A DNA stretch of 64,000 nt from Escherichia coli 042 (GTDB taxonomy: Bacteria; Pseudomonadota; Gammaproteobacteria; Enterobacterales; Enterobacteriaceae): assembly GCF_000027125.1 (NCBI RefSeq), contig NC_017626.1; one strand, 5' to 3'. This document shows, piece after piece, positions 28,677 to 31,600 of this stretch; the stretch's first letter is position 1; each line of letters opens with the position of its first letter. The position numbers are program-made.

Positions 28677-31600
28677 TTAAACAAAAAAACGAAGCAAGCA
28701 TACGCCTGATGGCGGTCCAAAAAAAAGAGTCATCTTGCCTAAGAGTATTGGCAGGATGGTGAGATTGAGCGACAATCGAGTTACACCGTCGCTTAAAGTG
28801 ACGGCATAATAATAAAAATATGAAATTCCTCTTTGACGGGCCAATAGCGATATTGGCCATTTTTTTAACGCAACATCTGCGGCAAATTCCCTTCTCCATA
28901 CAGGTGTAGTGCACCGACTGCGACCACATAGCGCCCCGGCGGCATGGCGCATAATTTGTCCCGCCAGGCGAGATTTCGCTGATGCATCAGCACATCGTAC
29001 AGCGACTGACTGAACGTATTAGGCAGCGTTATTTCATTATTTTGCGGCGGCGCATTCAGCCACCAGCTCATCATTTGTTGCAGCAACCGTGCATTGGTGT
29101 GCCAGTGGGTCAGCGTATCGTCCAGCAGCGCCAGTCCGTTGTCAGGGAGCTGGAGCAACATGGCAATCTGGTTTTCTGCCCCTTCCAGTTCAATCACGGG
29201 TTTATGTTGTTGCTTCGCCGCCTGCAATAGCTGGTAATCGATACCGTATTCTGCCCGCAGCCCCAGTTTTTGTGCCTGCGTCGCCTGAAGAACCATCGCG
29301 ATTTGCCACAGCGGTTGGGTAGAAAAGAGTGAGGTAGAAATGCCCATCTCCTGGCTAATGTGCTGCAGGTTTTGGAGTTGCTCCTCGCTAATGCGCTCTT
29401 CCAGCGCCTCGCAGGCAGGCAAATTAGCAAAAGGCGTATCGCTGGTGGAAACATCCGCCTCGACGATCAGCGCATCGGCGTTTTTGAGCTTTTTGAGCAA
29501 ACGGGTGGGCAGGGGAGCCATATCGTGGCTGCCCATATGAATACTGCCAATCAGATGAAAATGGCGATTGCCGGGAAGAGAGATATCGATAGCAGGCCAG
29601 GTGTAATGATTACCGCGCAGCGCGGCCCAAAGCGTTTTTACCCGGTACAACAGATCCATACGACCTCCCTTTGTGAAATATCATGCTAGCGCGCGGGGAG
29701 GGATGGCGCAAATGGAGTTATGAGGCTTGTTCAGTGGTAGCTTAAATATGATCGAAAAATTGTTTTTGCTTTGAAACGAAAGACTGCACCGGTGTTGGTG
29801 GCGTCAAAATCGCCGAGGCGTTCCCTGAAGGCCGGGGCAGCCCACATGGATGTGGGCTGAGGGCGCGTTTTACAGGGATGTTACCTCGCGCCCGACCCGG
29901 TAGCCGCAAGGGATAAGCTGAGGGTACCGCGCAGCGGCGATTTTGTTCGCCAGAGCCCGGGGGTGCAGGGGGCGGCGGCGATTGGCCGCCCCCTGCGCCA
30001 GTCACTTTATATGGCATGACTCATAAAAGGAGCGCAACAAGAACTGGATCTCACAAACGCATTAAGTAAATACCAATCACTCTTTCGGTTTAAACCGCAG
30101 TAACCGGTTGGCGTTACTCACTACGGTAATCGATGAGAGCGCCATTGCCGCTCCGGCGACCACCGGGTTAAGCAGTGTTCCAGTGAACGGCCACAAAATA
30201 CCGGCGGCGACCGGAATACCAATGCTGTTGTAGATAAACGCGCCGAGCAGGTTCTGCTTCATATTGCGCAGCGTTGCGCGGGAAATCGCGAGCGCATCTG
30301 CAACACCCATCAGGCTATGGCGCATCAGGGTAATCGCCGCGGTTTCAATGGCAACATCACTGCCGCCACCCATCGCAATACCGACATCCGCCTGGGCCAG
30401 CGCTGGCGCGTCGTTAATGCCGTCGCCCACCATTGCCACCTGACGTCCTTCACTTTGCAGACGTTTGATCGCTTCGGCTTTACCGTCCGGCAGCACCCCG
30501 GCGATCACCTCATCAATCCCTGCTTCTTTGGCGATCGCATTGGCGGTGGTTGGGTTATCCCCGGTCAACATCACCAGACGATATCCCGCTTTATGCAGAC
30601 GTTGCAGCGCCGCCACGCTATCACTACGCAACGGATCGCGTACTGCCAGCAAGGCCACCGCTTTCCCGTCAACCGCCAGCAGCACAGGCGTTGCCCCTTG
30701 CGATGCCTGAGCTGAAATATCTGCCTCAATCGCTTTAGTATCAACTTGCTGGTCATTTAACAGCGCCTGATTGCCCAGCAATACCGCATGACCTTCAGCT
30801 TCACCGCTCACACCCAGCCCGCGCAATGTGCGGAAACCGTTGACCTGCGGTAGCTGCATATCACCTGCTTTATCGAGGATCGCCCGTGCCAGCGGGTGGC
30901 TGGAACCTTGCTCCAGCGCCGCCGCCAGACGCAATGCTTGCGCTTCATCAACATCAGCAAATGTTTTTACTGCGACAACCTGCGGCTTCCCTTCGGTCAG
31001 CGTCCCGGTTTTATCGAACACCACGGTGTCGAGCGTACTGGCGCGTTGCAGCGCGTCGGCGTCCCGCACCAGCACACCAAACTCAGCCGCCCGCCCGACG
31101 CCCGAAATAATCGACATCGGCGTCGCCAGTCCCAGCGCACACGGACAGGCGATAATCAGCACCGTGGTGGCAATCACCAGGGTATAGACAATCTGCGGTG
31201 CCGGACCAAAGAAATACCAGATTGCCGCACTGATCAGCGCAATGACTACCACTACCGGCACAAACACGGCGGAGATTTTATCCGCCAGTTGACCGATTTC
31301 TGGCTTGCTGCTCTGGGCCTGTCGCACCATGCGAATGATCCGTGACAGCGTAGTATGGCTGCCGACCGCACTGGCACGAAACAGCACACTGCCGTCCTGT
31401 ACCACTGTCCCGGCATGGACGCTATCGCCTTCGCCTTTTTGCTGCGGGATAGGTTCGCCCGTCAGCATCGCTTCATCCAGCCACGCTTCGCCTTGAGTAA
31501 TCTCACCATCTACCGGCACACGGTCGCCGGTCGTCAGGCGCAGTAACATACCTGGCTGAACATCTGCCAGCGGCACGTTTTTTTCACCTTCGTCAGTGAC

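What the first reader, a model, noticed from the sequence alone, without database searches (positions are those of the whole stretch)
29700..30076. Hairpin-dense GC-rich element with no ORF where I recall K-12 carrying ybaQ
Between ybaP and copA I recall an XRE-type regulator gene (ybaQ, about 113 aa) in K-12. Here the 417-bp interval has no credible ORF; the only track ORF (29742..30017 minus) is a Pro/Gly-rich artefact. It contains nested perfect inverted repeats: a 10-bp outer pair (29806-29815 / 29935-29944) enclosing two hairpins, and a separate 12-bp GC stem (29965-29996). The architecture suggests a structured RNA, a miniature inverted-repeat element, or the scar of a replaced gene. I could not match it to REP or ERIC consensus by eye.
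Basis: partly seen in the sequence, partly recalled or inferred. Interest (0 to 1): 0.5.

Follow-up and report, generated by a model that had tools for sequence, protein, structure and literature searches.

The report
Extra copy of E. coli TRIP1/RRS repeat
The hairpin-rich segment between ybaP and copA is a copy of an already described E. coli repeat (TRIP1e, of the "replication risk sequence" family); it sits where K-12 and most strains carry the ybaQ antitoxin gene, so the feature is real but not new.

Summary
K-12 has ybaQ here. This window has no credible gene, only a GC-rich, strongly folding element.

The element is not unknown. It is the ybaP-copA copy ("TRIP1e") of the TRIP1 repeat family (Rudd 1999; Li et al. 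2024). The K-12 copies of this family near lysO and dusC are the "Replication Risk Sequences" (RRS) of Pham et al. 2024. The window copy is 97.6% identical to both RRS over the 222-bp core. It carries the exact G-quadruplex motif at 29959-29978 on the + strand. By synteny with K-12, that strand is the lagging-strand template.

Most likely mechanism (inferred from experiments on the paralogs): when unwound, the element folds, stalls lagging-strand synthesis and leaves a post-replication gap. It is also a substrate for inter-repeat recombination.

About 6% of complete E. coli genomes have this allele. Others carry a RelE/ParE-HigA toxin-antitoxin pair or ybaQ alone. The window copy has an 11-bp deletion seen in no other complete genome.

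One point I did not find in the papers I searched: the TRIP1/RRS core has the architecture of the Rfam TwoAYGGAY motif (31.5 bits, below threshold). It has two hairpin loops that match the CsrA-binding consensus. This remains a lead only.

The parts
29732..30080 (.). Allele-specific segment (349 bp). It replaces the 727-bp ybaQ-containing segment of K-12 and the RelE/ParE + ybaQ cassette of other strains.
   Evidence: BLAST against K-12 (L002) and the toxin-antitoxin allele (L065). Homology ends at window 29731 (K-12) or 29719 (toxin-antitoxin allele) on the left, and resumes at 30081 on the right, at the copA stop codon.
29784..30038 (+). TRIP1e repeat element. It is 255 bp here and 265 bp in the published form.
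   Evidence: Li et al. 2024 place it 124 bp upstream of the ybaP start and 38 bp downstream of the copA stop. My BLAST to the K-12 lysO-aqpZ copy gives 29783-30042.
29793..30003 (+). Core equivalent to the 222-bp RRS of K-12 (211 bp here).
   Evidence: 206 of 211 aligned bases (97.6%) are identical to both RRS-lysO and RRS-dusC. The two K-12 copies differ from each other at only 2 positions plus 1 gap (alignment).
29805..29945 (+). P1-closed domain. The long outer stem has arms 29805-29820 / 29930-29945 and encloses three hairpin branches. This region matches the Rfam TwoAYGGAY model.
   Evidence: the repeat finder pair I2. cmscan RF01731 at 29804-29943, 31.5 bits against a gathering score of 43, E = 0.009, full model 1-168. 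Compensatory changes in P1 between subtypes.
29838..29859 (+). Hairpin 1, with the loop sequence ACATGGATGT at 29844-29853.
   Evidence: Perfect 10-bp arms. 4 of 9 stem pairs covary between subtypes (helix 7). The loop fits the CsrA SELEX consensus RUACARGGAUGU except for U at the R position.
29862..29894 (+). Hairpin 2 (GGGCGCG / CGCGCCC), with ACAGGGATGT at 29872-29881.
   Evidence: helices 8-9. These two are the only ACANGGATGT sites in the whole 64-kb window; 0.39 are expected by chance.
29898..29930 (+). Third branch inside P1, containing a further GGA (AAGGGATAA). This insertion relative to the TwoAYGGAY model probably lowers the Rfam score.
   Evidence: MFE structures as RNA and as DNA. 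The cmscan alignment shows this region poorly matched.
29959..29978 (+). G-quadruplex-forming sequence GGGGGTGCAGGGGGCGGCGG, identical to the RRS G4 motif.
   Evidence: Exact match, found on the + strand only. The motif and its polymerase-blocking activity are described in PMC11194060.
29962..29999 (+). GC-rich hairpin (15-bp arms, 8-nt loop GGCGATTG). It overlaps the G4 tracts.
   Evidence: the repeat finder pair I3. The helix covaries between subtypes.
29996..29997 (.). Site of an 11-bp deletion (TGCGCGCTCCT) between two TGCGC direct repeats. Not seen in any complete genome searched.
   Evidence: Alignment to the K-12 copies. All best genome hits are 428 bp against the 417-bp query, at 97.4% identity. 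The deletion removes one arm of a covarying 3' helix.
30027..30035 (+). AAGGAGCGC, the 3' arm of a family-conserved helix. Its partner GCGCTCCTT is deleted in this copy.
   Evidence: Helix 12 has 4 of 9 pairs with compensatory change. Type A has GCGCUCCUU/AAGGAGCGC; types B and C have CGUUCAC/GUGAACG.
29742..30017 (-). 91-aa ORF. It is an artefact and not a gene.
   Evidence: It is created by the 11-bp deletion and is broken into 55-aa and 52-aa pieces in the full-length allele.

Best explanation
This is TRIP1e, the ybaP-copA copy of the TRIP1 repeat family. It belongs to the same family as the two E. coli Replication Risk Sequences (RRS) near lysO and dusC. It acts as DNA, not as a gene.

Inferred mechanism: when the replication fork unwinds it, the G-rich (+) strand is the lagging-strand template. 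That strand folds into a G-quadruplex plus a large multi-hairpin structure. Lagging-strand polymerase stalls and re-initiates downstream. This leaves a post-replication gap of up to about 2 kb, which SSB and RecA occupy. Pham et al. propose such gaps as topological relief.

As a near-identical dispersed repeat, it is also a substrate for homologous recombination with the other copies, which produces inversions.

What is shown here: the identity, the position and the exact G4 motif. What is inferred: the lagging-strand orientation (by synteny) and the gap-triggering activity (from experiments on the paralogs).
For: **Identity**
- The core is 97.6% identical to both K-12 RRS.
- The boundaries match the published TRIP1e offsets from ybaP and copA.
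- The repeat is present in 5404 of 5426 complete genomes, with a median of 3 places per genome.
- The ybaP-copA allele is present in 346 of 5426 genomes. Li et al. report 232 of 6725.

**Mechanism**
- The exact G4 motif lies at 29959 on the + strand.
- The window is collinear with K-12 (ushA, ybaK, ybaP, copA, glsA). The + strand therefore corresponds to the top strand of the right replichore, which is the lagging-strand template.
- Pham et al. showed that RRS placed at three ectopic sites in this orientation each created a new RecA/SSB peak, and that the G4 blocks Pol I, II and IV.
- The ssDNA fold is -74.9 kcal/mol, z = -7.0.
- By synteny, the other full-length copies (lysO, dusC, alx-sstT, asmA-yegH) have the same orientation relative to fork travel.
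- Li et al. recorded TRIP1a/TRIP1e rearrangements.
Against: - No experiment has been done on this copy.
- The 11-bp deletion removes part of the 3' domain. It lies outside the G4 motif, but its effect is unknown.
- Replication direction was inferred from synteny. The GC skew of the window is only weakly positive (+0.006).
- The G4 model does not explain why the two ACANGGAUGU hairpin loops are so strictly conserved far beyond Escherichia.
- Inverted RRS can still complement RRS deletion without producing gaps. Gap formation may therefore not be the whole function.
Confidence: 0.8

Rival explanations
1. The element is transcribed, and its core is a TwoAYGGAY-class structured RNA. Its two hairpin loops (ACAUGGAUGU and ACAGGGAUGU, 28 nt apart) would clamp one CsrA dimer. 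The RNA would either titrate CsrA or place a transcript under CsrA control. This could coexist with the DNA-level role.
For: - cmscan gives a full-length match to RF01731 at E = 0.009.
- A diverged sister copy in Pseudocitrobacter passes the gathering score, 49.2 against 43.
- Both loops match the CsrA SELEX consensus, with ACA and GGA invariant and GGA in a hairpin loop.
- They are the only two such sites in the 64-kb window.
- Gardner and Eldai 2015 independently proposed TwoAYGGAY as a CsrA-binding sRNA.
- The structure covaries: 23 of 66 pairs have compensatory changes and 95% of cells are paired, against 41-47% in the slid controls.
- A 3' helix has conserved G-U pairs that could form only on the + strand as RNA.
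- The + strand folds 18 kcal/mol better than the - strand.
Against: - The scan found no sigma-70 promoter and no intrinsic terminator.
- The element is antisense to both flanking genes here and at lysO-aqpZ.
- The Rfam score is below threshold.
- The CsrA CLIP-seq tables of Potts et al. 2017 have no entry at the K-12 paralog coordinates. Reads from repeats may have been discarded, so this is weak evidence.
- Covariation is equally expected for hairpins in ssDNA.
- Almost all pairs are Watson-Crick: 16 G-U against 7 A-C, on a structure that was predicted from the + strand.
Confidence: 0.15
2. It is a selfish miniature mobile element (MITE-like). It inserted into, or replaced, the ybaQ cassette and has no function for the host.
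For: - It is dispersed and small.
- The inverted-repeat outer stem resembles terminal inverted repeats.
- Its presence varies between strains and between species (sstT-alx in E. whittamii, mdlB-glnK in Pseudocitrobacter).
- Related two-hairpin repeats are multi-copy in many Gammaproteobacteria and often lie at contig ends.
Against: - No direct repeat flanks the boundaries.
- No transposase is associated with it.
- There are only 2-10 copies per genome, at the same loci in nearly all E. coli and in other Escherichia species.
- The outer-stem sequence differs between subtypes with compensatory changes, rather than being conserved as a transposase-binding site would be.
- At least one RRS is conditionally essential in K-12 (abstract).
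Confidence: 0.04
3. The segment encodes a small Pro/Gly-rich protein from the 91-aa minus-strand ORF.
For: An ATG-initiated ORF of 91 aa spans 29742..30017.
Against: - The ORF exists only because of the 11-bp deletion in this copy.
- In the 346 genomes with the full-length allele, and in the K-12 paralogs, it is split or frameshifted.
- Its composition simply mirrors the GC-rich hairpins.
Confidence: 0.01

Closest known systems
TRIP1 repeat family, type TRIP1e (Rudd 1999, Res Microbiol 150:653; Li et al. 2024, Genes 15:236, PMC10888264)
   Same: The locus is the same: 124 bp upstream of ybaP and 38 bp downstream of copA. The length class, GC richness and 'double-Y' fold also match. The core is 97.6% identical to TRIP1a and TRIP1c. 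The allele is a minority one (3-6% of genomes).
   Different: This copy lacks 11 bp (TGCGCGCTCCT) that every complete-genome copy has. The published family list has five loci. It does not include the more divergent asmA-yegH copy found here (about 86% identity, L021).
Replication Risk Sequences, RRS-lysO and RRS-dusC (Pham et al. 2024, NAR 52:6392, PMC11194060)
   Same: The 222-bp core sequence, the exact G4 motif GGGGGTGCAGGGGGCGGCGG, and (by synteny) the G4 strand on the lagging-strand template.
   Different: It lies about 1.08 Mb from dif (K-12 coordinates, my own calculation), not about 650 kb, so it does not flank the Ter macrodomain. Gap formation has not been measured at this copy. It carries the 11-bp deletion in its 3' part.
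TwoAYGGAY RNA motif (Rfam RF01731; Weinberg et al. 2010)
   Same: A long P1 stem encloses two adjacent hairpins whose loops read C-AYGGAY-G. It is multi-copy in gammaproteobacterial genomes. The ACAGGGA variant of the second loop also occurs in Weinberg's own alignment.
   Different: The score is below the gathering threshold (31.5 against 43). There is an extra third branch inside P1 and a G4/GC-hairpin 3' domain that are not part of the model. The family is filed as an RNA, whereas the E. coli elements have a demonstrated DNA-level effect.
CsrA-sequestering sRNAs (CsrB, CsrC, RsmY, RsmZ, McaS)
   Same: GGA motifs in hairpin loops match the SELEX consensus. Two sites lie at a spacing that one CsrA dimer could bridge (the spacing range is from my own knowledge of Mercante et al. 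2009).
   Different: There are only 2-3 sites instead of about 9-22. No promoter or terminator was recognised. There is no evidence of expression or binding.
REP/BIME and ERIC/IRU repeats
   Same: They are intergenic, palindromic and dispersed in E. coli. REP units fill the same intergenic region in the K-12 allele.
   Different: There is no sequence similarity. Copy number is far lower, the unit is much longer, and the architecture is multi-branch.

Membership tests
TRIP1 / RRS | High sequence identity to TRIP1a (lysO-aqpZ) and TRIP1c (dusC) of K-12 | tested here: met
   206 of 211 aligned bases (97.6%) over the 222-bp core are identical to both copies.
TRIP1 / RRS | TRIP1e position: 124 bp upstream of the ybaP start and 38 bp downstream of the copA stop | tested here: met
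   ybaP starts at 29659 and copA ends at 30077. The offsets give 29784-30038. BLAST boundaries are 29783-30042.
TRIP1 / RRS | Exact G4-forming sequence 5'-GGGGGTGCAGGGGGCGGCGG-3' on the sense strand only | tested here: met
   There is a single match at 29959-29978 on the + strand and none on the - strand.
TRIP1 / RRS | The G4 strand is the lagging-strand template | tested here: inconclusive
   Collinearity with K-12 around 508 kb (right replichore) implies that it is. The GC skew of the window is only weakly positive. The positions of oriC and dif in the source genome are unknown.
TRIP1 / RRS | Triggers RecA/SSB-bound post-replication gaps; blocks DNA polymerases | not testable with these tools
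   This has been shown only for RRS-lysO, RRS-dusC and ectopic copies of them.
TwoAYGGAY (RF01731) | Score at or above the Rfam gathering threshold | tested here: not met
   The window scores 31.5 bits against 43. The sister type-C copy in Pseudocitrobacter scores 49.2.
TwoAYGGAY (RF01731) | Two terminal loops with AYGGAY | tested here: inconclusive
   Loop 1 is AUGGAU and fits. Loop 2 is AGGGAU, with G where Y is expected. The same variant occurs in members of the original alignment.
TwoAYGGAY (RF01731) | A closing P1 stem, often very long | tested here: met
   The P1 arms are 29805-29820 / 29930-29945, extended in the MFE structure. The published description is quoted.
TwoAYGGAY (RF01731) | Structure supported by covariation | tested here: met
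   23 of 66 pairs have compensatory change. 95.4% of cells are paired, against 41-47% in slid controls, and 0 of 500 shuffles reach the observed values. Only about 3-4 independent lineages contribute.
CsrA-binding RNA | GGA in hairpin loops matching RUACARGGAUGU | tested here: met
   ACAUGGAUGU is at 29844-29853 and UUACAGGGAUGU is at 29870-29881. The consensus is quoted.
CsrA-binding RNA | The element is transcribed | tested here: inconclusive
   The consensus scan found no promoter or terminator. No expression data are available here.
CsrA-binding RNA | CsrA binds it in vivo | tested here: inconclusive
   The supplements of the Potts 2017 CLIP-seq paper have no entry at the K-12 paralog coordinates. 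Reads from repeats may have been dropped.
MITE | Terminal inverted repeats flanked by a target-site duplication | tested here: not met
   No direct repeat flanks the element boundaries. The site shows replacement of a cassette, not a simple insertion.
REP / ERIC | Sequence similarity to the REP or ERIC consensus | tested here: not met
   The element matches only other TRIP1 copies. The K-12 allele's REP units do not align to it.

The most novel reading that the evidence does not exclude
TRIP1/RRS elements may be the Escherichia branch of the TwoAYGGAY motif family, a link I did not find in the papers I could search. If so, one of two things follows.

(a) RRS are also expressed as RNAs whose two consensus hairpins bind CsrA.

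(b) The TwoAYGGAY 'RNA' family, of unknown function since 2010 and multi-copy across Gammaproteobacteria, consists of DNA-level elements that fold on the lagging-strand template, as RRS do.
Probability: 0.25. Interest if true: 0.6.

Novelty: already known. Interest (0 to 1): 0.3.

Why it matters
As a feature, it is ordinary. The repeat, this particular locus variant and its frequency are all published, and the paralogs have an experimentally supported role in post-replication gap formation.

Three points go beyond the papers I could search.

- The ybaP-copA site has at least three alternative alleles: a toxin-antitoxin pair, an orphan antitoxin with REPs, or TRIP1e. Strains with this allele therefore carry a natural additional RRS far from the Ter macrodomain boundary. 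That would be a ready-made test of the 'works wherever placed' claim.
- The RRS core has the architecture of the TwoAYGGAY motif, with two loops that fit the CsrA consensus. This connects two literatures that do not cite each other. It also raises the question of what the strictly conserved loops do, which the G4 model leaves unexplained.
- A divergent family member at asmA-yegH, and covariation across subtypes, show that the whole multi-hairpin fold is under selection, not only the G4.

Tried and rejected
- **'RSA' repeat.** I suspected from memory that the element was the old 'RSA' repeat. The only trace I found lists RSA as 150/151 bp with 6 copies in the old K-12 record. Neither the copy number nor any sequence could be matched, so I dropped the name.
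- **Rfam.** The gathering-threshold scan of the window finds only the DnaX frameshift element and sroB. Nothing is found at the element.
- **Promoter and terminator scan.** Nothing found.
- **CsrA CLIP-seq supplements.** No entries at the coordinates of the K-12 paralogs. This is uninformative for repeats.
- **Orientation test by local GC skew.** Across 60 related loci in other genomes, 19 of 38 loci with at least 4 kb of flank had positive skew. There is no signal, and the test is too noisy to separate a DNA role from an RNA role.
- **G-U versus A-C counts.** 16 against 7, but biased by how the structure was derived.
- **Type-C copy from Pseudocitrobacter in E. coli.** Absent.
- **Coding hypothesis.** Rejected.
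- **Ancestry of the alleles.** I could not tell which allele at ybaP-copA is ancestral.
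Full report
**1. The observation**

The window carries ushA, ybaK, ybaP, copA and glsA in the K-12 order.

  - an outer pair at 29805-29820 / 29930-29945, with a perfect 10-bp core;
  - a perfect 10-bp hairpin at 29838-29859;
  - a second hairpin at 29862-29894;
  - a GC stem at 29962-29999.
- Bases 29785-30005 fold far better than shuffled controls:
  - as RNA: -133.3 kcal/mol, z = -5.8;
  - as ssDNA: -74.9 kcal/mol, z = -7.0.
- K-12 does have ybaQ here. Window 29732-30080 (349 bp) replaces 727 bp of K-12.
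- The 91-aa minus-strand ORF is an artefact of an 11-bp deletion in this copy. In the full-length allele it splits into 55-aa and 52-aa pieces.

**2. It is a dispersed repeat**

- The 161-bp core is found at 80% coverage or better in 5404 of 5426 complete E. coli genomes. The median is 3 places per genome and the range is 1-10.
- The whole ybaP-copA interval is found in 346 genomes.
- In K-12 the copies lie between lysO and aqpZ and downstream of dusC.
- A more divergent copy (about 86% identity) lies between asmA and yegH.

**3. It is already described**

- A literature search led to Li et al. 2024 (PMC10888264). The family is TRIP1, first reported by Rudd in 1999.
- K-12 has TRIP1a (915016-915281), TRIP1b (putP-efeU, with a 125-bp internal deletion; confirmed) and TRIP1c (2229122-2229394).
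- Li et al. define two further types. [quoted passage not shown]
- Those offsets give window 29784-30038. My BLAST boundaries are 29783-30042.
- Li et al. report a stable 'double-Y' RNA fold, no known function, and inversions between copies, including TRIP1a/TRIP1e events.

**4. Function of the paralogs**

Pham et al. 2024 (PMC11194060) identify TRIP1a and TRIP1c as the two 222-bp Replication Risk Sequences.

- The RRS contain one G4-forming sequence, GGGGGTGCAGGGGGCGGCGG, on the strand that serves as lagging-strand template at both loci.
- The G4 blocks Pol I, II and IV in vitro.
- RecA and SSB load on about 2 kb of lagging-strand template next to each RRS.
- RRS moved to fabR, djlC or dinI in the same orientation each create a new peak. 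Inverted RRS do not.
- At least one RRS is conditionally essential, and deleting both alters genome-wide supercoiling.

How the window copy compares:

- It is 206/211 (97.6%) identical to both RRS across the core.
- It has the exact G4 motif at 29959-29978, on the + strand only.
- The window is collinear with K-12 at about 508 kb, in the right replichore. The + strand should therefore be the lagging-strand template. This is an inference. The GC skew of the window is only weakly positive.
- By the same synteny argument, the lysO, dusC, alx-sstT and asmA-yegH copies share this orientation. The truncated TRIP1b is reversed.

**5. The locus is polymorphic**

The ybaP-copA site has at least three alleles:

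- a RelE/ParE toxin gene plus ybaQ (HigA antitoxin), with 57 bp to copA (L065);
- ybaQ alone followed by REP units, as in K-12; at least 2644 genomes cover 80% or more of the K-12 segment;
- TRIP1e, as in this window.

Homology to the other alleles ends at 29719 (toxin-antitoxin allele) or 29731 (K-12) on the left. It resumes exactly at the copA stop codon, which is TGA here and TAA in K-12. The window allele therefore lacks the hairpin that follows copA in K-12. I could not determine which allele is ancestral.

**6. The deletion in this copy**

This copy lacks TGCGCGCTCCT after 29996. The deletion lies between two TGCGC direct repeats, which is consistent with replication slippage. Every best hit among the complete genomes has the extra 11 bp (428 against 417 bp, 97.4% identity). 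The G4 motif is intact.

**7. Structure and wider relatives**

- Rfam gives one sub-threshold hit: TwoAYGGAY (RF01731) at 29804-29943, 31.5 bits against 43, E = 0.009, full-length.
- The two loops, ACAUGGAUGU and ACAGGGAUGU, are the only ACANGGATGT sites in the window. They fit the CsrA SELEX consensus RUACARGGAUGU.
- Gardner and Eldai 2015 had already proposed TwoAYGGAY as a CsrA-binding sRNA.
- A scan of species-representative genomes for the two loops found 58 loci.
  - Most are in Gammaproteobacteria, including Escherichia species, Pseudocitrobacter, Xanthomonadales, Acidiferrobacterales and Methylomicrobium.
  - They are usually multi-copy small repeats of 65-300 bp.
  - They typically have a long P1 stem whose sequence differs between paralogs while the pairing is kept.
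- Pseudocitrobacter has two elements head to head. One is a diverged 'type C' that passes the TwoAYGGAY threshold at 49.2 bits.
- On an alignment of types A, B and C (alignment A2):
  - a 66-pair structure is 95.4% paired, against 41-47% in slid controls;
  - 23 pairs have compensatory changes, against 1-7 in slid controls;
  - 0 of 500 shuffles reach the observed values.
- A 3' helix covaries between subtypes: GCGCUCCUU/AAGGAGCGC in type A, CGUUCAC/GUGAACG in types B and C. An alternative extension of the GC hairpin has conserved G-U pairs.
- The deletion in the window copy removes a strand shared by both of these helices.

**8. DNA or RNA?**

Covariation is expected for hairpins in either ssDNA or RNA.

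For an RNA role:
- the better fold of the + strand;
- the conserved G-U pairs;
- the fit of the loops to the CsrA consensus.

Against an RNA role:
- no recognisable promoter or terminator;
- antisense orientation to both neighbours here and at lysO-aqpZ;
- no CsrA CLIP entries at the K-12 paralogs (weak evidence);
- direct experimental evidence for a DNA-level effect.

A GC-skew orientation test on the wider family gave no signal (19 of 38 positive).

I therefore rank the RRS mechanism first and the CsrA/TwoAYGGAY RNA reading as a non-exclusive minority hypothesis.

**9. Verdict**

The element is a known repeat (TRIP1e, RRS family). The novelty class is 'already known', and interest is low to moderate. 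The residual interest lies in the TwoAYGGAY/CsrA resemblance, which I did not find in the papers I searched, and in the natural extra RRS that this allele provides.

Noticed in passing
window 28783-28866 (+): sroB/ChiX small RNA gene, partly overlapping the 3' end of ybaP. Rfam RF00368, 81.1 bits, as in K-12.
   Followed up: no
window 13607-13671 (+): DnaX ribosomal frameshifting element. Rfam RF00382, 96.8 bits.
   Followed up: no
window 30077-30100 and L002:3838-3879: The allele boundary lies exactly at the copA stop codon (TGA here, TAA in K-12). The window allele lacks the GC hairpin that follows copA in K-12 and in the toxin-antitoxin allele. copA transcripts here would therefore run into the antisense strand of the repeat.
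   Followed up: partly
L065:1633-2312; L002:3219-3560: ybaQ is the HigA-type antitoxin of a RelE/ParE toxin-antitoxin pair that is intact in some E. coli. K-12 keeps only the orphan antitoxin and has gained three tandem REP-containing units before copA.
   Followed up: partly
L021:8740-9010 (-), asmA-yegH intergenic region: A divergent member of the family (about 86% identity). It has the same two loops, compensatory changes in the outer stem and in the 3' hairpins, and a run of 9-10 G in place of the G4 motif. It is not among the five TRIP1 loci of Li et al. 2024.
   Followed up: partly
L019:1900-2440 (and L060), mdlB-glnK intergenic region of Pseudocitrobacter: Two family members sit head to head. 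One is E. coli-like. The other is a diverged 'type C' that alone passes the Rfam TwoAYGGAY threshold.
   Followed up: partly
L047-L051 (Rehaibacterium), L029-L033, L052-L054, L013-L015: Related two-hairpin elements are multi-copy short repeats in several non-enteric Gammaproteobacteria. They often lie at contig ends, which suggests they break assemblies. Paralogs keep long P1 stems paired although the stem sequences differ.
   Followed up: partly
window about 36000-60000: A compositionally distinct block with GC 0.58-0.62 and AT skew about +0.15. From memory, K-12 has an Rhs element in this neighbourhood. I did not examine it.
   Followed up: no
L005:3270-3320 (K-12 lysO-aqpZ copy): The conserved AAGGAGCGC at the 3' end of the repeat is followed 6 nt later by ATGATGAATCAACATATAACAACATCTTAA, a 9-codon ORF. 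This ORF is not conserved in the window copy or in types B and C.
   Followed up: no
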